From: a virus
Virus record (IMG/VR): IMGVR_UViG_3300023181_000271
Strand: one strand, 5' to 3'
DNA: 64,000 bases
Shown: positions 1 through 64,000 of the stretch, piece by piece
How the letters are laid out: each line of letters opens with the position of its first letter
Numbering within the stretch: the first letter of the stretch is position 1
Notes under the pieces: generated by a model
The model's input: the letters and a program-made list of their open reading frames with translations, nothing else
What the model was told of the DNA's origin: nothing
Databases searched by the model: none
Position numbers and translations under genes: made by a program

Positions 1-220
1 TGCTGCTCTATTTCCGTTGAAATCCCTTTTCTAATTGGAAGTCGCAGCTTTAAGGATAATGTTGCATGTGCGGGCAACATTTTTTTAAAATTAATATTTC
101 ATTGGATTGGTTGACGAGTTAAGTTACAAAATTGAGTTTGAATACGTCATCTTACAATGATTATAATTAGCTGATTAACAATATAAATAAGGAATTTGCA
201 AAAAATATTCTTTAGGAAAA

Positions 221-832
221 TTGAGCAATCATAATTATATTTATAACATGATGAAAGCAAAACACTTACTGTATATATTTCTACTTGTGATGGGACCTGC
301 AGCTATGGCACAAACTACAACTCCGCTTCCTACTTCAGAGAGTATCATGAAAGCCGCCTATGCAAAAGCAGCTAAAGAACATAAAAATGTCTTGCTGATG
401 TTTCATGCCTCATGGTGCGGATGGTGTAAAAAAATGGATGCTTCGCTAAACGATCCGAGTGTCAAAAAAATGATAGATAACAATTACGTTATTGCGCATT
501 TGGATGTATTGGAACAACCTGCAAAAGCAGAACTTGAAAACTCGGGCAGCCTGGAAATGATGACTAAGTTTGGCGGAGATAAAGCTGGCTTACCCTATTG
601 GCTGATTTTAGACGCTAAAGGAAATATGCTAGCTAATTCATTGATGCCTAAAGATGGTGAAACCACGGTAACGGCTAAAGATAATGTGGGCTGCCCGGCA
701 TCAGAAAAAGAAGTCAGCTTTTTTGATTCTATATTGAAAAAGACATCCAAATTAAAAGAAGATGATATCAAGGTTATACATACACGCTTTTTGTTGAACC
801 AACCGGCTCCACAACCCGGAAAAACCAGTTAA
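221..832 (+). CDS. Secreted thioredoxin-like thiol-disulfide oxidoreductase (TlpA-like)
   Basis: Hydrophobic N-terminal signal peptide followed by Ala-X-Ala cleavage-like site; CXXC active-site motif WCGWCK typical of thioredoxin fold. Confidence 0.7.
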   Translation: MSNHNYIYNMMKAKHLLYIFLLVMGPAAMAQTTTPLPTSESIMKAAYAKAAKEHKNVLLMFHASWCGWCKKMDASLNDPSVKKMIDNNYVIAHLDVLEQPAKAELENSGSLEMMTKFGGDKAGLPYWLILDAKGNMLANSLMPKDGETTVTAKDNVGCPASEKEVSFFDSILKKTSKLKEDDIKVIHTRFLLNQPAPQPGKTS

Positions 833-969
833 TCAATGACGTTAGCATGTTCGCTGTTAAGAACTGATAAATATGACAAGGTTATCTCTTGAACAGCTCT
901 AATTCATCATAGCTTTTGACTATTTGCCATAGAAATAAATGATTGTGATTATCCGATCCAAAATCATAG

Positions 970-3297
<2,328 letters not shown>

Positions 3298-3320
3298 GGT
3301 CATCAGATATTAAAAGTTTA

Positions 3321-3349
3321 AGGCACCGTAGTTTCGGTGCCTTTTTTTA
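3321..3349 (+). terminator. Rho-independent terminator of katG
   Basis: Hairpin aggcaccg-tagtttc-ggtgcct followed by T7 run immediately after katG stop. Confidence 0.8.
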
Positions 3350-3505
3350 TAAGAATTTGTTAAATAGTACGTTATCACCTTCATAGGTTATACTGAAGAC
3401 AAATTCAACATCGTACGAAGGTTAGAACTGGAAGGAATTTGAGGATAGCTAAATTTATAGACAAAGATTTAGCCACATCTACCTAAAATTGGCTAAAAAT
3501 GGACC

Positions 3506-3817
3506 CTATAGTTTTAGGGAACTTGACCAGTCCGATAATCTTGTAGCCATTCCATGATGTTGTGCAATGGCTAACAAGTCAATGTCTTTTATTGCGTCTT
3601 GTTGTAAGAAACGGGCACCACGAATCCTTAATTCTCCTAACATATTTCTTTCTAGATCAGTCGTATCAACTGTCGGATCTAATCTCGATTTTGCAGGCAA
3701 AAGAGGTTTAAAACATGATTGACCACGGAAAAGGTCTATAGTACCTGGATCAGGCTTTCCAAGTGAAATTATTTTACTAAAAAAACTCTCCCATCCATTC
3801 CACCCAACTTTTTTCAT
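3506..3817 (-). pseudogene. FRG-domain protein, probably C-terminally truncated fragment
   Basis: Contains FRGQ signature and downstream SDW motif of FRG domain but ends after 103 aa, shorter than typical FRG proteins; lies in decayed accessory region. Confidence 0.35.
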
Positions 3818-3844
3818 TTTCGATCTATGGTGCTAAAACAAGAT

Positions 3845-4141
3845 TTACGAGGCTATCGCAAATGCTTTTATATTTCCAAATTCCTCTGATTTATCAATTA
3901 GCTCGTTCTCTATGTCATAATCGTTCTGCAAGCCCAGCCAGAACCTTGCAGAATTGCCAAAGAAGATACTTAAACGTAGAGCTGTATCCGCCGTTACTCT
4001 TCTATTTCCTTTAATAATTTCTGAAATACGAGTTTGAGGGATATTGGTTTCCTTCGCTAGACGATAAGCAGTAATATTTAAAGGGATCAGAAATTCCTCA
4101 CTTAGAATTTCACCCGGATGAGTGTTAGGTAGCTTTTCCAT
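3845..4141 (-). CDS. higA: HigA-type HTH antitoxin (addiction module antidote protein)
   Basis: Sequence HPGEILSEEFLIPLNITAYRLAKETNIPQTRISEIIKGNRRVTADTALRLSIFFGNSARFWLGLQNDYD is canonical HigA/XRE HTH; likely start at internal Met (MEKLPN). Confidence 0.8.
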   Translation of the reverse strand: MEKLPNTHPGEILSEEFLIPLNITAYRLAKETNIPQTRISEIIKGNRRVTADTALRLSIFFGNSARFWLGLQNDYDIENELIDKSEEFGNIKAFAIAS

Positions 4142-4151
4142 AATACATTTA

Positions 4152-4379
4152 TTAATGATAATCAATAATTTCTACTTCGCTCGCATTTCCGTCCGACCAT
4201 TTGAAAATTATACGCCATTGGTCATTTATGCGGATACTATAGTAATCCTTTAAATCACCTTTTATCCTCTCCAATTTATTAGATGGTGGAATGGTTAAAT
4301 CAGGAAGCATTAGTATGTACATTGTCAATACGTCCATTCTATTTTTACAATTCCTTTTAGGACTTGCCGTTTTCTGCAC
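4152..4379 (-). CDS. higB: HigB-type toxin (RelE/ParE superfamily plasmid-maintenance killer), possibly N-terminally divergent or truncated
   Basis: C-terminal 45 aa (LERIKGDLKDYYSIRINDQWRIIFKWSDGNASEVEIIDYH) match HigB killer protein; toxin-upstream/antitoxin-downstream order typical of higBA; N-terminal third does not match family. Confidence 0.65.
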   Translation of the reverse strand: MQKTASPKRNCKNRMDVLTMYILMLPDLTIPPSNKLERIKGDLKDYYSIRINDQWRIIFKWSDGNASEVEIIDYH

Positions 4380-4418
4380 ATGACACTGATTCTAATGTAT
4401 ATGTAAGAATTACATATC

Positions 4419-4486
4419 AATAAAAAGGCCTCTGAGACACTCTCAAAGGCCTGGGTGGAGCTGAGGAGGAGTTAAATGAACCCTTT
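4419..4486 (-). repeat. Degenerate second copy of ssrA 3' end plus flanking terminator (relic att site of an older integrated element)
   Basis: Minus-sense GGGTTCATTTAACTCCTCCTCAGCTCCACCCAGGCCTTTGAGAGTGTCTCAGAGGCCTTTTT aligns with attL-side AAAGGTTCGAACCCCTTCGGCTCCACACAGGCCTCTGAGATTATCTCGGAGGCTTTTTTTT. Confidence 0.5.
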
Positions 4487-4708
4487 TTACGACTTTTAAT
4501 GCTGGTAAGGGAGGTTAATGAAGAAAATATCATGGTAAAAGAGGCGGAAGAAGAAATTGAATATTGATTGGTTTTAAGAGGCAAGGGGGCTAACGCCGAA
4601 CTTTTTTTATAATCTGCACATAGCCATTCATTTCTTTAATCATAGATAGACTTTGTAATGAACATATATTTTAGGTATTTTTGATGTATACCTTATCAAA
4701 TTGCATTT

Positions 4709-4948
4709 ATGCACACAGTAGATCTTATTTCCAGAAGGATAAATACGCTCATTAGACTTGGTGAGAGGAAAGATGGAGTTTTTTTAACTGATCTTAAGAA
4801 GGAGTACCGCCCAGATCTTCAAAATTTTATTGTAGGCGAAACTTTAGGCTTGCGAGACGGAAAAGTAGTTATAGGCAAAAACACTTATAAAAGATGGTTA
4901 CAAAAGATCAAAACTAATGGTTTTGATTATGATGTAAAGTTTATTTAA
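4709..4948 (+). CDS. Hypothetical protein immediately upstream of fic (stop-start adjacent)
   Basis: 79-aa ORF ending TAA directly followed by ATG of Fic gene; no recognisable motif. Confidence 0.3.
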   Translation: MHTVDLISRRINTLIRLGERKDGVFLTDLKKEYRPDLQNFIVGETLGLRDGKVVIGKNTYKRWLQKIKTNGFDYDVKFI

Positions 4949-5749
4949 ATGGCAATTGAAGATCAATTTAAAAAAATAAACGCCCTTCAAAAACAAATCC
5001 TTAAGCTGGAACCAAATCTAATGAAATGGGACCCGGATTACCTGGAAAAAGTAAAAGTTGATTTTACTTATGCATCAAATAACCTTGAAGGTAATAAGAT
5101 ATCACACGGACAGACCATACAAATATTAAAGGATTTCGTTAGCCCAAAGGATACTTCAATTTCTGATTATCTCGATATCCTCAATCATAAAAAGGTTCTT
5201 GATTTGGTTTTTGAAAACTATAAATCAGAACGTATTACTGAAAGTAACATCAAGAAACTCCACAAAGAGTTGATGAAAAATCCTGCGCAATGGGCAGATG
5301 ATACATATTGCGATCCAGGCAAATATAAGATTTTTGAAAACCGTACATACAGATCTAATGGTAAAGAACATCTATATGCAGAGCCAGAGAAAGTCCAACC
5401 GGCTATGGAATTACTAATTAGGGAGACAAATGAAGCTTTAGACGTTAATTCTACCAATATTGAATTTCACCCATTATCTATAGCTACTCGTTTTCACTTC
5501 ATATTTCTTAATCATATACACCCATTTGGTGACGGAAATGGCAGAATAGCACGTATTTTTATGAATCTTATTTTATTACAGAAAGGGCTTCCCCCTATTT
5601 TCATAAAAGAAGTTGACAAAAAAGATTATCTGGATTGTTTTACAAAGGAAGAAGAACACCCCGGAGTAATGCTTGAATTTATGACAGCACGATTGATTGA
5701 AAGTCTAAAATCAAAGAAAAAGCATCTTCTTGCAAGTTTGAATAAATAA
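4949..5749 (+). CDS. Fic/Doc family protein (AMPylation-type Fic domain)
   Basis: Canonical Fic motif HPFGDGNGRIARIFMN (HxFx(D/E)GNGRxxR) in a 266-aa protein. Confidence 0.9.
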   Translation: MAIEDQFKKINALQKQILKLEPNLMKWDPDYLEKVKVDFTYASNNLEGNKISHGQTIQILKDFVSPKDTSISDYLDILNHKKVLDLVFENYKSERITESNIKKLHKELMKNPAQWADDTYCDPGKYKIFENRTYRSNGKEHLYAEPEKVQPAMELLIRETNEALDVNSTNIEFHPLSIATRFHFIFLNHIHPFGDGNGRIARIFMNLILLQKGLPPIFIKEVDKKDYLDCFTKEEEHPGVMLEFMTARLIESLKSKKKHLLASLNK

Positions 5750-5929
5750 GCTTTACTATATTTATTAACGGTGAGAATGTGAATCTGTATACTAAAATCG
5801 AGTAAGCGCCAAATAATTATCATGTATAGGAAAATGCCATTTTGTATACACGACGAAGATGTCATATAAAGAAGATGGCACTTTCCTATATATGAGATAT
5901 GAAACAGCACCACAGAGGCAACGCCATTA

Positions 5930-6160
5930 ATGAAAAAAGCCTTAAAAACAATTTTAGGTATAATCGTTTTTTCTAGCTTATTTGGAATATCATATGCGTT
6001 TGGAACTAAAGACATTTCACCTATATTAATAGACTATCTTTTTTTCGGAGGTGGAGTTTTATGTTTTGCTTCCATCATTACATTAGGCATACTGGTAATG
6101 GTAGACGATAATTATCCATCGCACTTGCTTGGAGATCTTGACAACTTCACAAACACCTGA
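5930..6160 (+). CDS. Small hypothetical membrane protein
   Basis: 76 aa with two predicted TM helices; no homology evident. Confidence 0.3.
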   Translation: MKKALKTILGIIVFSSLFGISYAFGTKDISPILIDYLFFGGGVLCFASIITLGILVMVDDNYPSHLLGDLDNFTNT

Positions 6161-6223
6161 TCTATATCGTAATGTATATTCCAAATAAGCACAGATGGGT
6201 ATAGAATGAGATTATAAAACAGC

Positions 6224-6254
6224 AAAAAAAAGCCTCCGAGATAATCTCAGAGGC
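6224..6254 (-). terminator. Original host ssrA terminator displaced to the left prophage junction
   Basis: Minus-sense hairpin GCCTCTGAGATTATCTCGGAGGC followed by T8 immediately after the displaced ssrA 3' core. Confidence 0.5.
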
Positions 6255-6259
6255 CTGTG

Positions 6260-6288
6260 TGGAGCCGAAGGGGTTCGAACCTTTGTCT
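6260..6288. repeat. attL: displaced copy of ssrA 3'-terminal core (tggagccgaaggggttcgaacc + tttgtct)
   Basis: 22-bp exact and 29-bp near-exact direct repeat with 63875-63903; corresponds to T-arm and acceptor 3' strand of tmRNA. Confidence 0.8.
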
Positions 6289-6466
6289 ACCACCTTCAAC
6301 GGTGTTTGATGACGGTTTAAGTGGTCAAAAATAGGGTTTGGTTTGGTCATTTGTCAGTGATTTGGTCAGCTAATATTGGTAAAATAAATGATCAAATCAA
6401 ATCCGATTAAAGCAACAAACCCCTGGCTTTCACCAAGGGTTTTTATCATAATTGAAAACATTACTA

Positions 6467-18800: not shown

Positions 18801-21002
18801 ACCTTCGATCTTATCCCGGTTAGCAAGAATTGTAGATTGTCTTTCTTCAGCTTTGATAGCTGCAATAGCATCTGCATTTCTTTTTGCAGCAGCAGTTGGT
18901 CCAGATAATATATCACCAAAACCACCACCAAAACCTTTAGCTAGCGTGCCAAATCTACTAATTATCGTATCCAGGTTCTTGATCAGTATTGTTGCAGCGT
19001 CGATGCCTCCTTTGAAAAACTGGCCAATGCTACTGTCAGGATTAGTAGTTACATTGGTAATGGAATTACCTAATTTATCCCATGATGCAGCAAGGTTGTT
19101 GTTTTTCTCTTCAAAGTTTTCTGATAAAATAGTATGCTCCTCATAAAGGTCATTACCTGTTTTAACTTTCTTACTTAAGCTTTCTTGATTTAACGCCAAA
19201 GCTGTTATTGCATTGGTTGCAGCACCAACTTTAAAACCTAATGTACCCAGTCTATCGTTAAACTCAGTCGTAGTTGGATTGCCAGCTTTCAATCCTTTGA
19301 AGAATAAGTCCAGTGCCTGTTTAGAGTCTGTATTTACAAGTTTGGTGAACTTTTCTAACGTTAAAGTTGAATCAGCAAGCTGAGCAATCGCAAAGTACTT
19401 TTCTCTCTTTCCGGATAAGGAAGATATCAACCTACTAGTTGATGATGCTGCAATCTGAGCACTTACCCCTGCCTCTGACAAGACTGCACCATAAGCCAGC
19501 ATAGTCGGCAATGATAACTTTGCTACCCGAGCTGCACCAGCAGTTCTTAAAGTGAAATCTTGAAGGAACTGAACGTTAATTGGTCCAGTGTGGGATATAC
19601 CAAGAATAGCAGATCCTACCTTTTTAAGTGACTCTTCTAAACTAATATTCTCCTTTGAAGTCAGCTTATAGATTGAAATGATTTTTCCTAATGATCGGGC
19701 GACCGTCTCAGCACCACCTGGGAACTCCCTTTTTAAGACAACTGCTAATTGGTCAATAGTCTCGATATAACCTACAAGATCTTTCTTTGCAACCGCAAGC
19801 TGCCCCCCAACAAAACCAGTGTCTAACAGACCAGATAAATTGGTTCTTGTATCAACATCCTTAAGTGTAGTAACTAATACTCCTACCTCTTCCGTTGACT
19901 CCCTTGCGGTCCTTTTTATATCGGAAATACTATCAGACAATTCTAAGTTAGCATGGAATACACTTTTTATTGCTGCCACTGCTGCGTACAAAGTCAAGTA
20001 TGAGGCCACCATGCCAACAATCTGAGAACCTAAACCTGATAAAAATCCACCGGTCTTTTGGATAGCGTTTCCAAACTCATCAAAACCTTTTTTTCCAGCA
20101 CTATTTAACCTTTGTAATTCCTCCTGAGTCTGACCAATCTTTCTGTTTAGCGCAACGATGTTCTCAGCACCCTTAGCAGTATTTGGCTGTGCACGTACAG
20201 CATCAGAATAAATCTTTAGCCTATTAGTAAGCGTCTCCTGATAGCCGATCGTCTTTTTGATCGCATTCCCTACCTCATCAAAACCGGCTTTTCCGGCATT
20301 TTTTGTTTTGACAATTGCTGCAGCTGTTTCCTCTAGTTTACGATTGTACTTAGCGATAAGTTCAGGATTGGTCATTGATGCTGCACCATTCTTATAAATT
20401 TTTTGCAGCTCAATCAATCTATTTAAAGTTCCAACAGGACGTTCAATGGAAACTTTCATTGCATTACCCAACTCGTCAAAACCATCTTTACCAATATTTT
20501 TGGTTCTGGTAATCTGAATAGCAACATCAGCAAGCTTTTGATTGTATTTAGCAATTGCATCAGTATTAGCCATCCCAACTAATCCAGCTTTGTAGATGTT
20601 TTGTAATTCTATTAGCCTGGCAAGTGTACCAACTGGTCTTTCGTAAGACGTTTTAATCGCATTACCAAGGTCATCAAAACCTATTTTACCAATATTGGTA
20701 AGCCTCTTTATTTCAGCTTCAAACTCTTGAATCTTTTGATTGTATTTTTCAATACCAGCAACAGACATAGCGGAATCTGCAGAGGCTTTAAACTCAGCCA
20801 ATTTTGCTTTAAGCCTTTCAAGAATTCCATTATTAGCATCTGCAATTTTCTTAGCAAATCCTTCCACCTTTTCACCCTGAGCTGTGGCATTGCTTGCCAG
20901 CCCATTCACCTTGGTGTTCATGGTATTTATCGTCGCATTGAAGCTCTTATCGTTTATCGTTGCATCAAAATGTAATCCACCGCCTGTTGTTGAAGTGCTC
21001 AT
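15867..21002 (-). CDS. Tail tape measure protein
   Basis: 1711 aa, coiled-coil rich, internal ~44-aa tandem repeats, TM-like segment, located between chaperone and distal tail genes. Confidence 0.9.
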   Translation of the reverse strand: MSTSTTGGGLHFDATINDKSFNATINTMNTKVNGLASNATAQGEKVEGFAKKIADANNGILERLKAKLAEFKASADSAMSVAGIEKYNQKIQEFEAEIKRLTNIGKIGFDDLGNAIKTSYERPVGTLARLIELQNIYKAGLVGMANTDAIAKYNQKLADVAIQITRTKNIGKDGFDELGNAMKVSIERPVGTLNRLIELQKIYKNGAASMTNPELIAKYNRKLEETAAAIVKTKNAGKAGFDEVGNAIKKTIGYQETLTNRLKIYSDAVRAQPNTAKGAENIVALNRKIGQTQEELQRLNSAGKKGFDEFGNAIQKTGGFLSGLGSQIVGMVASYLTLYAAVAAIKSVFHANLELSDSISDIKRTARESTEEVGVLVTTLKDVDTRTNLSGLLDTGFVGGQLAVAKKDLVGYIETIDQLAVVLKREFPGGAETVARSLGKIISIYKLTSKENISLEESLKKVGSAILGISHTGPINVQFLQDFTLRTAGAARVAKLSLPTMLAYGAVLSEAGVSAQIAASSTSRLISSLSGKREKYFAIAQLADSTLTLEKFTKLVNTDSKQALDLFFKGLKAGNPTTTEFNDRLGTLGFKVGAATNAITALALNQESLSKKVKTGNDLYEEHTILSENFEEKNNNLAASWDKLGNSITNVTTNPDSSIGQFFKGGIDAATILIKNLDTIISRFGTLAKGFGGGFGDILSGPTAAAKRNADAIAAIKAEERQSTILANRDKIEGIATIKSKLIVDTNIDEPSLKKAIDIQQSKLNRLYEQSNYAKEYAKNPKNSEAAIKPFVDRFKNLQAPLLQQQSIVDKLRKSYTGLYGAVQETFDGAGGEGRTTDDIKADIKALVDANKKLGYTTAQYQSNLKKLKDLRKELKLANGGIDNSGITEKNQYASALKARNDLQTKIAELIKAGTDRQLSADQQEIESVKDKYIKMRAEAAAFNKDVKNKAKGLSVDAGGLAEGEKKELAAVTYRQNTAKLTIELDKQKVLYTDFEQAKKEIGETAAKKRFATELGSTKNYLDTLKDEYSKLIYKGVSNSINGKLLSGPEQERLIIVANRIKEEQKKERDNYNALLLTNATYQQAKTTATEKFNADFEKMTGDANASNRAVRTKAYQDEIDQLSSAMLQKSAVYKRAAEEALILTREQLVQQIRALEGVLGSGTLPAEQVIKVQKSLDALKLSFKIGIDKGNLQNLKDEFKRVSDQLHVKDEDGNEIILSEDDYKAIITRLAAIGIKIKEIDKNGDGAASWGDKIAENFSYLKGTSSEFAAGVSKDLGALSSSFDELSTSLGGNDTQAGYLLDTIGKLVKVGSDAAGSFSSFASGDIVGGVTKAVTAVTGLLSIGKKVKEMNAAARKEVEDFYINAIAGEREYQDMLKERQLQTVRNNKVALQGIRDELALRKSQNEAYTKEAAEIMAKLQSQSFIANETYTHGTWFRKAKVDKTYGSLQGKSFQELSNLLAQGKLEGDAKALVERLKELEQKGYDAEQAIADLAKETSELFTGTTSDNLTNTLAEMFASGKTSAQDLADFFKQTMDDAALSIFKNKVLAGAMEKFYSEFDKAAQSGDELTADEIATLNGLFTSLTGDALKKFEEFKKITGSNLLGSDDSSGTIKSGIQAITATQADVLAGHFAGFRLTQLETNNILKPMGLTAIQILNMSSLNLLESQKIAANTLRTADNTNRLESIENSLVSMNRKMDDQLKAQQGVGR

Positions 21003-31739: not shown

Positions 31740-31831
31740 TGTCTTTTACCTATTAACCCCGGGACTTATGCCCGGGGTGTCTTCACTGTTTTGCCGGCCA
31801 TTAAATCCGGTATTTATATTAATCAAGTATG

Positions 31832-31902
31832 CATGAGTGAAAGGATTCGAACCTATATCAATAGTTTTGGAGACCACTATTCTACCTTTGAACTACACTC
31901 AC
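31832..31902 (-). tRNA. Phage-encoded tRNA-Trp (anticodon CCA)
   Basis: Manual fold: acceptor GUGAGUG/CACUCAU, D-stem GUUC/GAAU, anticodon stem with loop CUCCAAA, T-arm AUAGG-TTCGAAT-CCUUU. Confidence 0.65.
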
Positions 31903-31905
31903 GTT

Positions 31906-32163
31906 TTAAACATTATTTAAACCAACGCACCCGCCACATAAAATAAGGGGTTTCTTTTCTTCGAAGATGTTAACTGAAATTATCTTCTTGTTGGTTCCAC
32001 GAGAGAAATAAGCTTTATCATTACTATTTGAATATTCTGAACCTTCTTCCTTCACTTCAATTGTAACCCATGGCCCATATTCACCTTCAGACATCTTAGC
32101 CCCCATAATCTCAGCCTTAAGTGCTACTAAAAACTGATCAACCTTTTGTTCTGTATCCAGCAT
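31906..32163 (-). CDS. Small hypothetical protein between the two tRNAs
   Basis: ORF trimmed to internal Met (MLDTEQ) so as not to overlap tRNA-Gln. Confidence 0.3.
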   Translation of the reverse strand: MLDTEQKVDQFLVALKAEIMGAKMSEGEYGPWVTIEVKEEGSEYSNSNDKAYFSRGTNKKIISVNIFEEKKPLILCGGCVGLNNV

Positions 32164-32177
32164 ATAATATATATTTG

Positions 32178-32251
32178 TTGACCTGGAAGGACTCGAACCC
32201 TCAATCTTCTGAACCAAAATCAGACGTGCAAACCAATTACACCGCAGATCA
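32178..32251 (-). tRNA. Phage-encoded tRNA-Gln (anticodon UUG) with U1-A72 pair
   Basis: Manual fold: acceptor UGAUCUG/CAGGUCA (U1:A72 as in bacterial tRNA-Gln), anticodon stem UCUGA/UCAGA with loop UUUUGGU, T-arm GAGGG-TTCGAGT-CCUUC. Confidence 0.65.
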
Positions 32252-62234: not shown

Positions 62235-62628
62235 ACTAATGGCAACGATAGATAAACAAATTAAAATGCAAATGGCTGCTCGGTTTAAACAATTTCGAGA
62301 GGAAGAAGGACTCAGTCAGGATGCTATTGCTGAAAAGACCAGTACACCCAGGAGTAATATATCTAAATATGATAACGGATCTTATAACCTACCAATTGAC
62401 TTCATTTTAGATTTGAAGAAATATTATAGGTTGAGCATTGATTGGCTGTTTACAGGCGAAGGATCACATAAAAGTGAAGTGGTTAAAAACAACACTTTGG
62501 TAACAGATATAAAGACGTTAAATGATAATAATATATATCTGCATGCTGAACTTAAATCATTGAAAAAGGAATTTTATAAGATGCATGCTGATTTTTACGA
62601 ACTTAAAAATACATTTAAGGCAGGTTAA
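62212..62628 (+). CDS. XRE-family HTH regulator (WLFTGEG type)
   Basis: LSQDAIAEKTSTPRSNISKYDNG ... IDWLFTGEG; probable start MATIDKQ (62239). Confidence 0.6.
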   Translation: MINQTITKLMATIDKQIKMQMAARFKQFREEEGLSQDAIAEKTSTPRSNISKYDNGSYNLPIDFILDLKKYYRLSIDWLFTGEGSHKSEVVKNNTLVTDIKTLNDNNIYLHAELKSLKKEFYKMHADFYELKNTFKAG

Positions 62629-62646
62629 AATCTCCTGCCTTTTTTA
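62617..62646. terminator. Bidirectional terminator between HTH gene and integrase
   Basis: Hairpin AAGGCAGG-ttaaaatctc-CTGCCTT followed by T6. Confidence 0.55.
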
Positions 62647-63863
62647 AACTCGGTTTCTTGAGTATTAATTCCCAGATCACGCATGTAGATCATAGTTGTA
62701 GCCAGATCCCGGTGCCGGAAGAGTTTCATAATTTTATGCAGATCTTCTCCATCCTCCCCTAAATGCACAGCCCTGGTATGCTTGTAACAATATATACCAT
62801 CACGATCTCCTAGATTTAAAGCTGTCTTGTAGGGTTTAAATAACCGCCTGAAGTAATCATCCCCTACTTTAGTTTCACCACCTAAGAACGCTCCATCCCG
62901 GTTCCTTGCAAAAACATAATCGTTTGAAGGCATCTGATCAATTTTCAATTCAAGTAGTAATTCCCTAAAATCTGGATAGATAGGTATGTATTCGGTTTTC
63001 CTATTCTTAGCGGTTCCACTGAGAACACGTAATGTGTTTTGCTTAAAGTTAATATCACCAGCTTTTACCCTGTTACCTTCCGATACATTTCGCAGGCCGG
63101 CATAATAGATGAAGCTGCAAAATGTATACAGCAATGTATCACCATTTTCCTGCATCATTTCTTTGAGTTGTTTAAACTCCCAATCATTTAATGCCTTGTT
63201 CCCAGGTCGGTCTACCCTTGCCCGGCTTAAGGTAAGGGTGGGTACTTTATCAATATAATCATCATAGTTATTGTAAAAATAATTGAAGAAGGTAGTGATA
63301 TCTGTCAGATAGTGATTATAGGTTTTTCCGGACCAGTTACGTTGCAGCTTATAGTAGGTCATGAAATCCAACACATGCGCTTTTTTTATATCTCGCAGCA
63401 ATACCTGATCATATTCATTCTTGATCAGCCAATTCTTAAAAAGGTTTAGTTCGAGTGAATACTTATGCATAGTGGTTTTCTTGACTGTGATTTCAGCCAG
63501 GTACTTATCTATGCAAATTGAAATTGTGCGCTGTTTGTTGAGTAAATTTTGAAGTGGCCGATATTCCTCAAAGGGTGACCATCCTTGTTTTAAAAGATCA
63601 GTAAGCTCATTTTTAAAACCCTTACCGTATTCTCTTCTTTCAGTTTTGGTTTTGAATTGATTGAATCCAAAATTATATCTAAATCTTTCGTATTTCCCAG
63701 TTAATGGATGTTGATATTTAATCCAAACGAACCAGTCTTTAGTAAGATCACCATTCTTTGGTTCATAAATAAAAGGGCCTTCCCACTTCGTTTTCAAATT
63801 CTCAGGTTTGTCAGTTTGGTCTGTTAATTGGTCAGCCGCAATATTAATGCGACTGACAATCAA
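62625..63863 (-). CDS. Tyrosine-type site-specific integrase (TTG start)
   Basis: C-terminal catalytic region with HTRAVHL ... FRHRDLATTMIYM (HxxR ... Y); adjacent to attR/ssrA. Confidence 0.9.
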   Translation of the reverse strand: MIVSRINIAADQLTDQTDKPENLKTKWEGPFIYEPKNGDLTKDWFVWIKYQHPLTGKYERFRYNFGFNQFKTKTERREYGKGFKNELTDLLKQGWSPFEEYRPLQNLLNKQRTISICIDKYLAEITVKKTTMHKYSLELNLFKNWLIKNEYDQVLLRDIKKAHVLDFMTYYKLQRNWSGKTYNHYLTDITTFFNYFYNNYDDYIDKVPTLTLSRARVDRPGNKALNDWEFKQLKEMMQENGDTLLYTFCSFIYYAGLRNVSEGNRVKAGDINFKQNTLRVLSGTAKNRKTEYIPIYPDFRELLLELKIDQMPSNDYVFARNRDGAFLGGETKVGDDYFRRLFKPYKTALNLGDRDGIYCYKHTRAVHLGEDGEDLHKIMKLFRHRDLATTMIYMRDLGINTQETEFKKGRRF

Positions 63864-63874
63864 CGTTTTAAGAG

Positions 63875-63903
63875 TGGAGCCGAAGGGGTTCGAACCCTTG
63901 TCC
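63875..63903. repeat. attR: ssrA 3'-terminal core reconstituted at prophage junction
   Basis: Direct repeat of 6260-6288. Confidence 0.8.
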
Positions 63904-64000
63904 AGTTGTGTGGCAAATTATGCCTTCTACATGCTTATTTTCCACTTTGTTTTCGGGATCAGACGGGCCGGAAACCTACCTTGCCTTTCTCCTTAGGTAC
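63875..64000 (-). ncRNA. ssrA: tmRNA (ssrA), 3' ~125 nt; gene continues beyond window
   Basis: Minus-sense ...UAAGCAUGUAGAAGGCAUAAUUUGCCACACAACUGGACAAGGGUUCGAACCCCUUCGGCUCCA: tRNA-like T-arm/acceptor, CGGCUCCA terminus and the conserved AAGCAUGUAG block as in E. coli tmRNA. Confidence 0.7.

What the first reader, a model, noticed from the sequence alone, without database searches (positions are those of the whole stretch)
3350..6259. Decayed older island next to the prophage: second degenerate ssrA-3'-end/terminator copy plus FRG fragment, HigBA and Fic
At 4419-4486 there is a degenerate copy of both the ssrA terminal core and its terminator: minus-sense ...GGTTC..CTCCTCAGCTCCACCCAGGCCTTTGAGAGTGTCTCAGAGGCCTTTTT versus ...GGTTCGAACCCCTTCGGCTCCACACAGGCCTCTGAGATTATCTCGGAGGCTTTTTTTT at the prophage junction. 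It lies 1.8 kb left of attL. The DNA between katG and attL encodes only mobile-element-type cargo: a truncated FRG gene, a HigB/HigA pair whose toxin is N-terminally atypical, a Fic protein and small ORFs. No integrase is present. This suggests successive integrations at ssrA, with an older element decayed and pushed away from the gene by the newer phage.
Basis: partly seen in the sequence, partly recalled or inferred. Interest (0 to 1): 0.55.

Follow-up and report, generated by a model that had tools for sequence, protein, structure and literature searches.

The report
Serine-integrase scar bounding small gene cassettes
The "decayed ssrA copy" is real, but it is the left junction (attL) left by a large serine integrase that targets the tmRNA gene, and it marks one boundary in a short array of integrase-less toxin-antitoxin/Fic cassettes that other Pedobacter genomes carry in different combinations.

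Summary
Observation confirmed. Window 4420-4486 matches the terminator plus ssrA 3' end at the prophage junction (score 53-56; best elsewhere 22).

Interpretation partly right. The copy is not a randomly decayed ssrA end. About 28 distinct copies of the same ~190-bp repeat (REP) occur in Pedobacter-type contigs, all with the same "degenerate" form: terminator hairpin, GTGGAGC, 15 nt, CGAACCCTT. True ssrA has 10 nt at that spacing.

That 5-bp shift is the attP-versus-attB signature of large serine recombinases (LSRs). A free 45-kb phage carries the same layout inside the 3' end of its LSR gene. In locus L099, an LSR gene abutting ssrA would read in frame into a REP. So REP is an attL that also encodes the orphaned last 36 codons of the integrase.

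The window holds three cassette units:
- FRG'-HigA-HigB', with both FRG and HigB truncated.
- ORF79-Fic.
- ORF76, left behind by a 1088-bp deletion of an MNT/HepT cassette.

None contains an integrase fragment. A tyrosine-integrase prophage (6288-63873) inserted later, and prophage-free strains exist.

How the cassettes move (accretion, with excision from alternative attL sites) is inferred, not shown. The nearest precedent is the Dehalococcoides ssrA islands.

The parts
3478..3526 (.). 49-bp fragment resembling an internal piece of a DUF1016/YhcG nuclease gene. Possible remnant of a further cassette at the truncated end of FRG.
   Evidence: 86% identity to L106rc 4906-4954, inside a DUF1016_N/YhcG_C gene pair. 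Weak evidence.
3506..3817 (-). FRG-domain gene truncated at its 3' end: 103 aa where the full gene has 240.
   Evidence: Pfam FRG positions 4-78 of 94. 88% identity to the first 100 aa of the 240-aa FRG protein in array C1. Nucleotide homology to C1 stops at window 3523.
3845..4165 (-). HigA antitoxin, intact. Probable true start gives 98 aa, 3845-4141.
   Evidence: TIGR02607 antidote_HigA E = 5.4e-30. 97% identity to the 98-aa C1 protein.
4152..4379 (-). HigB toxin remnant. Only residues 25-75 are HigB, equal to residues 43-93 of the 93-aa protein. The 5' 42 codons and the promoter were lost in a ~160-bp deletion.
   Evidence: Pfam HigB-like positions 43-91 of 91. 92% identity to residues 43-93 of C1 HigB. 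C1 6157-6321 has no counterpart between window 4301 and 4305.
4422..4451 (-). Intrinsic terminator: U-run 4422-4426 and 12-bp hairpin 4427-4451. An ssrA-type terminator belonging to the distal side (B half) of the junction.
   Evidence: Fold -19.3 kcal/mol, z = -3.7, 0 of 200 shuffles as good. Aligned to the terminator at 6224-6258.
4455..4461 (.). GTGGAGC, the antisense of the last bases of tmRNA (GCUCCAC). Inferred crossover region shared by attB, attP, attL and attR.
   Evidence: Pairs sharing the upstream cassette are identical up to this heptamer and diverge immediately after it. The same heptamer occurs in the free-phage attP and at the L099/L117/L118 attR junctions.
4457..4567 (+). P' half-site plus the orphan 3' end of a large serine recombinase gene: 36 codons, GAEEELNEPFLRLLMLVREVNEENIMVKEAEEEIEY, with stop TGA at 4565-4567. 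It contains 15 nt and then CGAACCCTT.
   Evidence: 18 of 28 distinct copies keep the frame and the stop position. Synonymous share is 42% in this frame against 25% and 16% in the other two. It is in frame with the L099 LSR gene. The spacing equals that of the free-phage attP.
4420..4610 (+).
   Evidence: nhmmer E = 9e-61, model positions 2-192. Breakpoint profiles.
4709..5749 (+). ORF79 (4709-4948, no family match) plus a Fic-domain protein (4949-5749): the cargo of the second cassette.
   Evidence: Pfam Fic E = 2e-16. 98% nucleotide identity in L086/L094/L110, whose katG is only 79% identical. Also present in Pedobacter westerhofensis and Pedobacter sp. MC2016-15.
5818..5897 (.). 80-bp palindromic element in the cassette 'tail'. 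It recurs upstream of the junction terminator in several unrelated cassettes.
   Evidence: DNA fold -16.4 kcal/mol, z = -5.7. Copies in L096rc, C1, L102rc, L106rc and L114. Function unknown.
5892..5919 (.). Truncated junction: tail motif ATGAGATATGAAACAGCA plus the first half of a terminator (CCACAGAGGC). This is the deletion scar where a REP and an MNT/HepT toxin-antitoxin pair (1088 bp in L086) were lost.
   Evidence: Window 4422-5919 and 5918-6268 flank L086 10971-12059. L086 genes carry NTP_transf_2 and HepT domains.
5930..6160 (+). ORF76, a small hydrophobic protein. It is the surviving ssrA-proximal part of the MNT/HepT cassette.
   Evidence: 98% identity to L086 12071-12301, where it follows MNT/HepT. 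No Pfam match.
6224..6258 (-). Intrinsic terminator that serves ssrA directly in prophage-free strains.
   Evidence: Fold -21.9 kcal/mol, z = -4.8. Contiguous with ssrA in L081, L082, L084, L085, L087 and L088.
6259..6287 (.). Displaced true ssrA 3' end. It is the prophage attL core, and together with the terminator it still looks like an intact serine-integrase attB.
   Evidence: 28 of 29 identical to 63874-63902.
62625..63863 (-). Tyrosine integrase of the 57.6-kb prophage (6288-63873).
   Evidence: Pfam Phage_integrase E = 1.4e-13.
63872..64000 (-). 3' part of ssrA (tmRNA gene), cut by the window end. The prophage attR core is 63874-63902.
   Evidence: Rfam RF00023 47.6 bits, model positions 236-374. 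The full gene scores 117 bits in L085.

Best explanation
**Shown or strongly supported.** The feature at 4420-4610 is the attL junction left by a mobile element that uses a large serine recombinase (LSR) targeting the 3' end of ssrA.
- Its left part is the host-type half (B). This comprises an ssrA-type terminator and GTGGAGC, the last bases of tmRNA.
- Its right part is the element half (P').
- In this LSR family the attP lies inside the 3' end of the integrase gene itself.
- Integration therefore leaves the last ~36 codons of the gene at attL. At attR, the gene body reads on into antisense ssrA.
- P' looks like a damaged ssrA T-arm because the integrase binds the same motif (CGAACCCTT) in both sites. 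The motif sits 5 bp further out in attP than in attB.

**Inferred from comparisons.** In Pedobacter such junctions separate compact 1-2 kb cassettes without an integrase. Their cargo includes toxin-antitoxin pairs, Fic proteins and nucleases, arranged in tandem downstream of ssrA.

**Proposed mechanism, inferred only.**
1. An LSR element integrated next to ssrA can excise using any older attL further out.
2. In doing so it carries the neighbouring cassettes with it.
3. After integrating in a new host it can excise from the inner attL.
4. That leaves a cassette behind and regenerates an attB next to ssrA.

**State of the window.** It holds a worn three-cassette array: FRG'-HigA-HigB'; ORF79-Fic; ORF76. 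A tyrosine-integrase prophage later inserted into the ssrA T-arm.
For: **The similarity is real.** Score 53-56 against 22 or less for unrelated sequence in the window.

**The 'degenerate' form is a conserved family.**
- A metagenome scan with the variant core found 20 loci.
- These hold 41 repeat matches, partial ones included, and 28 distinct copies of the variant core. All share GTGGAGC, 15 nt, CGAACCCTT.

**REP is a coding remnant.**
- 18 of 28 distinct copies keep 36 codons with the stop at the same place.
- Synonymous share is 42% in frame against 25% and 16% out of frame.

**Link to an LSR.**
- In L099 a Resolvase+Recombinase gene abuts ssrA.
- It reads through a terminator hairpin and GGT GGA GC into antisense ssrA.
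- The far end of that 12.8-kb island is a full REP, in the same frame.

**Family-wide pattern.**
- 14 of 23 homologues examined end in ...SGGAEG-RT-VQ, which is antisense tRNA/tmRNA.
- 8 of 23 end in ...SGGAE-x3-(I/N)EP..., the P' type.

**Free-phage attP.**
- P0009 sits on circularly permuted ~45.2-kb contigs in many samples.
- Its DNA reads hairpin, GTGGAGC, 15 nt, CGAACCCCT.

**The 5-bp shift.** True ssrA has 10 nt where P' has 15. A 5-bp shift between attP and attB is the published ZD-motif geometry of serine integrases (PMC3783163).

**Cassettes are modular.** The same cassettes occur with different neighbours:
- FRG-HigAB, 96% identity, is followed by Fic in the window but by MNT/HepT in C1.
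- ParE/antitoxin is followed by four different units.
- Imm32+SoFic sits next to ssrA in L108 and next to a REP in C2.
- ORF79-Fic is 98% identical between backbones whose katG is 79% identical.

**No integrase debris.** tblastn with the LSR finds no fragment in any array or in the 64-kb window.
Against: - No LSR gene is in the window, so the link rests on one locus with both ends visible (L099) plus the family-wide pattern.
- The distal ends of the L117 and L118 islands were not in the DNA held.
- Canonical serine integrases recombine only attP x attB, or attL x attR with a directionality factor. No such factor was identified.
- The accretion-and-drop model has no direct evidence: no circular junctions and no polymorphic excision were seen.
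- The codon-position signal is moderate. It was also measured on copies pre-selected for an open frame.
- Homologous recombination between the 80-bp conserved zones could shuffle cassettes without any integrase.
- Within the window's species the island shows no presence/absence polymorphism.
Confidence: 0.75

Rival explanations
1. An older island with a tyrosine integrase entered ssrA and duplicated its 3' end. It then lost its integrase and most of its genes, and the duplicated ssrA end decayed by random mutation.
For: There is a terminator plus ssrA-like stretch 1.8 kb from attL. FRG and HigB are truncated. There is a 1088-bp deletion scar. Tandem islands at ssrA are common (PMC3146451).
Against: The differences from ssrA are not random. 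The same 5 extra bases and the same substitutions occur in about 28 copies that flank unrelated cargo. They are open in one frame with a conserved stop. They match a serine-integrase attP in a free phage. Contiguous identity to ssrA is only the 7-nt GTGGAGC. No integrase pseudogene of any kind lies in 3350-6259.
Confidence: 0.07
2. REPs are genuine LSR attL scars, but the small cassettes were never mobile units. Each is what remains after a complete LSR element integrated and an internal deletion removed the integrase and most of the cargo.
For: Deletions do occur in this region: the HigB 5' end, the FRG 3' end and the MNT/HepT block. Within the window's species the island is fixed.
Against: More than 20 cassettes contain no LSR fragment. 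Each ends in an intact terminator-GTGGAGC with host-type geometry, and most hold complete gene pairs. Identical cassettes occur with different neighbours. After a normal integration the site next to ssrA is attR rather than attB, so repeated integrations would need attB to be regenerated each time.
Confidence: 0.15
3. REP is an intergenic repeat that spreads or is homogenised by homologous recombination or gene conversion. It would be a species-specific repeat like the repeats of a chromosomal integron or a REP/BIME element, with no current link to a recombinase.
For: There is an 80-bp highly conserved zone in every copy. Arrays hold up to 8 copies at 0.9-2 kb spacing. Cargo is rich in toxin-antitoxin genes, as in chromosomal integrons.
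Against: All copies have one orientation relative to ssrA. Where the context is visible they lie downstream of ssrA or a displaced ssrA end. There is a frame-specific conservation pattern and a conserved stop. REP is in frame with the L099 LSR and has the same architecture as the free-phage attP. No integron integrase or attC-like structure is present.
Confidence: 0.05

Closest known systems
Dehalococcoides ssrA genomic islands with the serine recombinase DsiB (McMurdie et al. 2011, PMC3146451)
   Same: Both have tandem islands downstream of the single ssrA gene, bounded by repeats of its 3' end. Both are driven by a large serine recombinase next to one boundary. Many of those islands (15) lack the integration module and were proposed to be cis-mobilizable by accretion.
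   Different: The phylum differs: Bacteroidota (Pedobacter) here, Chloroflexi there. Units here are 1-2 kb and carry toxin-antitoxin, Fic or nuclease cargo, against multi-kb rdhA islands there. The inferred crossover here is at the acceptor-end GTGGAGC/terminator junction, against the T-loop there. The repeat here is not a simple 20-bp direct repeat but a B|P' hybrid that encodes the integrase's own C-terminal tail. No DsiA-type partner or six-gene integration module was seen. Relatedness of the two recombinases was not tested.
Serine integrase att-site architecture (LI/A118 integrase; Rutherford et al. 2013, PMC3783163)
   Same: A shared distal motif lies 5 bp further from the crossover in attP than in attB: 15 nt against 10 nt before CGAACCCTT here, and positions 16-24 against 11-19 in LI. 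The hybrid attL and attR products are as expected.
   Different: Only the right half-sites could be compared here. The left half is a terminator hairpin. Binding was not tested.
Cis-mobilizable elements (CIMEs) and accretion in streptococcal ICEs (reviewed in PMC5704250; named in PMC3146451)
   Same: [quoted passage not shown]
   Different: CIMEs are usually seen as deletion derivatives of ICEs with tyrosine integrases. Here the units are far smaller, number up to 8 in a row, and are tied to a serine integrase.
Integrases whose att site lies inside their own gene: archaeal SSV-type 'suicidal' tyrosine integrases (PMC8371274); Myxococcus phage Mx8 int (from my own knowledge, not checked)
   Same: Integration splits or alters the integrase gene and leaves a gene fragment as a marker of the integration event.
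   Different: Here the enzyme is a bacterial serine recombinase. Only the last ~20-36 codons are exchanged, so the gene body stays intact. The review states that self-disrupting recombinases are known only in archaea.
Chromosomal integron cassette arrays
   Same: Both are arrays of short, mostly one- or two-gene cassettes separated by a conserved repeat, rich in toxin-antitoxin systems.
   Different: Here there is no IntI tyrosine recombinase, no attI and no attC hairpin sites. Cassette genes lie on either strand. The array is anchored at ssrA.

Membership tests
attL site of a large serine recombinase (B|P' hybrid) | One half derives from the host attB and the other from the element attP. | tested here: met
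   The left half is an ssrA-type terminator plus GTGGAGC, as next to true ssrA. The right half has the layout of the free-phage attP P' side, and in L099 it is in frame with the LSR gene.
attL site of a large serine recombinase (B|P' hybrid) | The distal recognition motif is shifted about 5 bp outward in the attP half relative to the attB half. | tested here: met
   The sequence is GTGGAGC + 15 nt + CGAACCCTT in REP and in L119. It is GTGGAGC + 10 nt + CGAACCCTT in ssrA. The rule comes from PMC3783163.
attL site of a large serine recombinase (B|P' hybrid) | A cognate serine recombinase gene lies in the same element. | tested here: not met
   No LSR homologue is in the 64-kb window (tblastn). 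The feature is met only in the related locus L099. The window's junction is an orphan scar.
attL site of a large serine recombinase (B|P' hybrid) | Recombination is catalysed at the site. | not testable with these tools
   Needs an in vitro or in vivo recombination assay.
Classical tRNA/tmRNA island with a direct repeat of the gene's 3' end (tyrosine integrase) | A contiguous block identical to the gene's 3' end (typically 15 bp or more) lies at the distal boundary. | tested here: not met
   For the relic, only GTGGAGC (7 nt) is contiguous with ssrA. The rest differs by 5 inserted bases and several substitutions that are conserved across copies. The prophage itself does meet this test: 29-bp core, 28 of 29 identical.
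Cis-mobilizable element (CIME) | Flanked by att sites and lacking integration and transfer genes. | tested here: met
   The ORF79-Fic unit lies between the REP at 4420-4610 and the truncated junction at 5892-5919. It holds no recombinase.
Cis-mobilizable element (CIME) | Mobilised together with an adjacent autonomous element. | not testable with these tools
   Only indirect support: the same cassettes occur with different neighbours and in different species.
Integron | An IntI integrase with attI next to the array, and attC sites between cassettes. | tested here: not met
   No tyrosine recombinase flanks any array. The repeat is a coding remnant, not an attC-type imperfect palindrome.
HigBA type II toxin-antitoxin system | A full-length HigB toxin together with a HigA antitoxin. 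| tested here: not met
   HigA is intact (TIGR02607 E = 5e-30). HigB lacks its first 42 residues compared with the 93-aa homologue.
Dehalococcoides-type ssrA-GI | A DsiB/CcrB-like recombinase with a DsiA partner and a conserved integration module. Insertion is in the T-loop. | not tested
   The tandem ssrA arrangement is shared. The inferred crossover here is at GTGGAGC rather than the T-loop. Relatedness of the recombinases was not examined.

The most novel reading that the evidence does not exclude
Pedobacter may carry an integron-like gene-cassette system run by a serine integrase instead of IntI.
- The orphan C-terminal integrase tails (REPs) would be reusable attL sites.
- An LSR phage or island docked at ssrA could then pick up or drop 1-2 kb toxin-antitoxin, Fic or defence cassettes. 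Each such event would also exchange the integrase's own C-terminal tail.
- This would be a bacterial counterpart of the archaeal self-splitting integrases. It would also be a new route for assembling defence and addiction gene arrays.
Probability: 0.35. Interest if true: 0.8.

Novelty: new variant of a known kind. Interest (0 to 1): 0.55.

Why it matters
- A sequence that looks like a decayed tRNA/tmRNA end can instead be a precise serine-integrase junction. Island-finding tools that look for direct repeats of the gene's 3' end would misplace or miss these boundaries.
- The geometry GTGGAGC + 10 or 15 nt + CGAACCCTT gives a ready attB/attP pair for a family of about 500 related integrases. This is of interest for genome engineering.
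- If the cassettes are moved by alternative-attL excision, this would be a second, integron-independent way for bacteria to build and reshuffle arrays of toxin-antitoxin, Fic and defence genes. It would also be a bacterial case of an integrase that alters its own gene on integration.

Tried and rejected
- **ARAGORN.** It found no tmRNA in the window or in any locus, even where Rfam scores 117-118 bits. Its negatives were ignored.
- **KatG genome scan.** The closest relatives were only 84-86% identical and had no ssrA nearby.
- **Phage flank similarity.** I suspected that the relic's flank resembles the prophage's left arm, which would imply a shared integrase. Alignment against shuffles gave p = 0.22 for the window phage and 0.89 for the L103 phage. 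Rejected.
- **Third ssrA-like relic.** A possible copy near 3400-3425 (CGAAGGTTAGAAC) did not rise above background in the whole-window scan. Rejected.
- **REP as a structured RNA.** The permissive Rfam scan of 3300-6400 gave only chance-level hits (E 0.011 or higher, all well below gathering scores), none on REP and two on the 5818-5897 palindrome.
- **REP core in viral contigs.** An exact-pattern scan found no matches.
- **Integron analogy as membership.** Rejected: no IntI, attI or attC.
- **Decay of complete LSR elements.** Considered and ranked lower because no LSR fragment exists in any array.
- **Distal ends of the L117 and L118 islands.** These were outside the DNA held.


Full report
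**1. Layout of the region**

| Coordinates | Feature |
|---|---|
| 1027-3297(+) | katG, ending with its own terminator |
| 3506-3817(-) | FRG fragment |
| 3845-4165(-) | HigA |
| 4152-4379(-) | HigB-like ORF |
| 4709-4948(+) | ORF79 |
| 4949-5749(+) | Fic |
| 5930-6160(+) | ORF76 |
| 6224-6258 | Terminator |
| 6259-6287 | 29-bp core |
| 63874-63902 | Second copy of the core, 28 of 29 identical |
| 63872-64000(-) | 3' part of ssrA, cut by the window end (Rfam tmRNA 47.6 bits) |
| 62625-63863(-) | Tyrosine integrase next to ssrA |

So 6288-63873 is a prophage integrated in the ssrA T-arm region. This is confirmed by same-species metagenome contigs. In L081/L084, L082/L088, L085 and L087, window 1-6287 is joined directly to 63874-64000 at 99.8-99.95% identity. 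L085 carries a complete tmRNA gene there (117 bits).

**2.

- The relic aligns with the attL terminator plus core at score 53-56. The attR core scores 49, and no unrelated place in the window, on either strand, exceeds 22.
- Both hairpins are intact 12-bp intrinsic terminators on the ssrA strand.
- The apparent extension of similarity into the phage-side flank is not significant (p = 0.22).

**3. The 'degenerate' form is a conserved family**

L086 comes from another species, with katG only 79% identical. It carries window 4422-5919 at 98.3% and 5918-6268 at 98.0% identity, with an extra 1088 bp between them that encode an MNT/HepT pair. It holds three copies of the repeat.

A metagenome scan with the variant core GTGGWGCTGAGGANGDKTTAAAYRAACCC found 20 loci. 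A profile search found 41 repeat matches in them, partial ones included, and 28 distinct copies of the variant core.

Every full copy (REP) has the same parts, in this order:
1. An A-run and a hairpin.
2. GTGGAGC.
3. TGAGGAKGAKTTAAA, which is 15 nt.
4. CGAACCCTT.
5. About 100 further conserved bases.

True ssrA reads GTGGAGC, then CGAAGGGGTT (10 nt), then CGAACCCTT. The five extra bases and the substitutions that made the relic look decayed are therefore shared by all copies. They cannot be decay in place.

**4. REP is the 3' end of a serine integrase gene and an attL**

- *One locus shows both ends.*
  - In L099, ssrA is followed by a Resolvase+Recombinase gene on the opposite strand.
  - That gene reads through a terminator hairpin and the codons GGT GGA GC into antisense ssrA, with no stop.
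  - The other end of that 12.8-kb island is a full REP.
  - Read from (N)GT GGA GCT, this REP encodes GAEDDLNEPFVRLLMLVRVVNEENILVKVVEEKIEY followed by a stop.
- *REP copies behave as coding sequence.*
  - Of the 28 distinct REP copies, 18 keep 36 codons with the stop at the same position.
  - Single-base codon differences are 42% synonymous in this frame, against 25% and 16% in the other two frames.
- *The integrase family shows two kinds of C-terminus.*
  - The integrase has about 500 homologues.
  - Of 23 examined, 14 end in ...SGGAEG-RT-VQ. This is the antisense of a tRNA/tmRNA 3' end, so these are integrated copies.
  - Another 8 end in ...SGGAE-x3-(I/N)EP....
- *A free phage carries the same site.*
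  - One of those 8, P0009, sits on circularly permuted ~45.2-kb contigs seen in many samples, so it is a free phage genome.
  - Its DNA reads AAAAAAGGGACTTTCGGTGAAAGTCCCCTCAG-GTGGAGC-TGAGCAGTTCGCAAT-CGAACCCCT.
  - This is the same architecture as REP, including the 15-nt spacing.
- *The spacing matches published integrase geometry.* A distal motif placed 5 bp further out in attP than in attB is the published geometry of serine integrase sites (PMC3783163).

The relic is therefore a B|P' hybrid. Its left side is host-type, and its right side is element-type and carries the orphaned integrase tail.

**5. Where exchange occurs**

- Pairs of junctions that share the upstream cassette but differ downstream are identical up to GTGGAGC and then diverge. 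An example is L108 next to true ssrA against C2 next to a REP.
- Pairs that share the downstream cassette become about 100% identical from roughly +80 after GTGGAGC.
- The zone from 0 to +80 is common to all copies.

**6. Cassettes**

REPs separate short units:
- Contig Ga0233344_1000015 has 8 REPs at 0.9-2.0 kb spacing.
- L108 has one cassette between a REP and a complete ssrA (118 bits).

Cargo identified:
- FRG+HigA+HigB.
- MNT+HepT, with or without Sel1.
- Four kinds of Fic protein.
- ParE plus an antitoxin.
- A DUF1016/YhcG nuclease.
- A TPR lipoprotein.
- Imm32+SoFic.
- An AAA_13/HEPN/DUF5343 block.

The same cassette occurs with different neighbours:

| Cassette | Neighbour or context |
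|---|---|
| FRG-HigAB (96% identity) | Followed by ORF79-Fic in the window and by MNT/HepT in C1 |
| ParE cassette | Followed by four different units |
| ORF79-Fic | Preceded by three different contexts, including the isolate Pedobacter westerhofensis |

tblastn with the integrase finds no fragment of it in any array or in the window.

**7. Reading the window**

- *Unit 1: FRG'-HigA-HigB'.*
  - FRG keeps 100 of 240 residues.
  - HigB keeps residues 43-93 of 93, after a ~160-bp deletion.
  - HigA is intact.
  - The unit's own distal REP, present in C1, is gone.
- *Unit 2: REP(4420-4610)-ORF79-Fic-tail.*
- *Unit 3: ORF76 only.*
  - At 5892-5919 the tail motif and half a terminator survive.
  - This marks loss of the next REP and MNT/HepT, which together make up the 1088 bp still present in L086.
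- *Next to the prophage.* The terminator at 6224-6258 and the true core follow. Together they still look like an intact attB for the serine integrase.

HigBA and FRG lie outside the relic, on the side away from ssrA.

**8. Mechanism (inferred, not shown)**

A normal serine-integrase integration leaves attR, not attB, next to ssrA. Yet every small cassette ends in a host-type terminator-GTGGAGC that restores attB.

The simplest account is accretion:
1. An integrated LSR element excises using an older attL further out, and takes the neighbouring cassettes with it.
2. After integrating elsewhere it excises from the inner attL.
3. A cassette is left behind.

This is the cis-mobilizable-element idea already proposed for the integrase-less ssrA islands of Dehalococcoides (PMC3146451). 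I have no direct evidence for it: no circular junctions were seen and no directionality factor was identified. Simple deletion of complete elements, or homologous exchange in the 80-bp zone, remain possible.

**9. Comparison and novelty**

- Tandem ssrA islands with a serine recombinase, including integrase-less members, are known in Dehalococcoides. That sets the kind.
- Several things differ here:
  - The host is Pedobacter.
  - The units are very small and carry toxin-antitoxin or Fic genes.
  - The crossover is at the acceptor end.
  - The attP lies inside the integrase's own 3' coding region, so each junction carries an orphan integrase tail.
- A review of archaeal integrases states that recombinases which disrupt their own gene are known only in archaea (PMC8371274). 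This is a milder bacterial, serine-type analogue.
- I rate it a new variant of a known kind.

**10. Verdict**

| Question | Result |
|---|---|
| Observation | Confirmed |
| Confidence that the relic is a serine-integrase attL | About 0.85 |
| Confidence in the cassette-accretion mechanism | About 0.4-0.5 |
| Overall interest | 0.55 |

Noticed in passing
window 63835-63885 (minus strand): In the lysogen, the ssrA 3' end is followed by phage DNA with no convincing intrinsic terminator (-8.9 kcal/mol, z = -0.9). The original terminator is displaced 57.6 kb away. tmRNA transcription may run antisense into the integrase gene.
   Followed up: partly
window 27932, 32935, 40679, 46024, 53918: Five copies of a 30-54-nt motif, ATGTTCTAATTGTTCTAATTTAGAACAT, containing an inverted repeat, are spread through the prophage. 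Possibly operator, promoter or terminator sites.
   Followed up: no
window 20053-20760: Four tandem 198-bp repeats (65-78% identity) lie inside a prophage gene. This probably reflects a repeated protein domain in a structural protein.
   Followed up: no
window 31831-32251: The prophage carries two tRNA genes on the minus strand, tRNA-Trp (CCA) and tRNA-Gln (TTG).
   Followed up: no
window 5818-5897; also L096rc 2019-2114, C1 14357-14455, L102rc 3246-3335, L114 10898-10973: An ~80-bp palindromic element (z = -5.7) recurs just upstream of the junction terminator in several otherwise unrelated cassettes. Its function is unknown. It could be a cassette-end signal or a small mobile palindrome.
   Followed up: partly
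window 3478-3526: A 49-bp stretch at the truncated end of FRG is 86% identical to an internal piece of a DUF1016/YhcG nuclease gene seen as a cassette elsewhere. It may be the trace of a fourth cassette.
   Followed up: partly
L117 10001-11707 (P0001), L118 6859-8607 (P0004): In integrated copies the serine integrase ORF has no stop at the junction. It runs about 60 codons antisense through ssrA. Its last conserved codons (EKG...SGGAE) encode, on the other strand, the terminator hairpin that serves ssrA.
   Followed up: partly
L116 9617-11091 (Pedobacter sp. MC2016-15): The ORF79-Fic pair (93% identity to the window) lies next to a tRNA gene rather than ssrA, and only the last 45 bases of a REP are kept. 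This hints that the cassette has moved to, or been fixed at, a different RNA-gene site.
   Followed up: partly
L114 13040-13075 (Pedobacter westerhofensis): A displaced true ssrA 3' end (GTGGAGCCGAAGGGGTTCGAACCCTT) is followed by non-ssrA DNA. This isolate also has a further element inserted between its cassette array and ssrA.
   Followed up: no
all loci with ssrA (L085, L108): ARAGORN reported no tmRNA in loci where Rfam finds complete tmRNA genes at 117-118 bits.
   Followed up: yes
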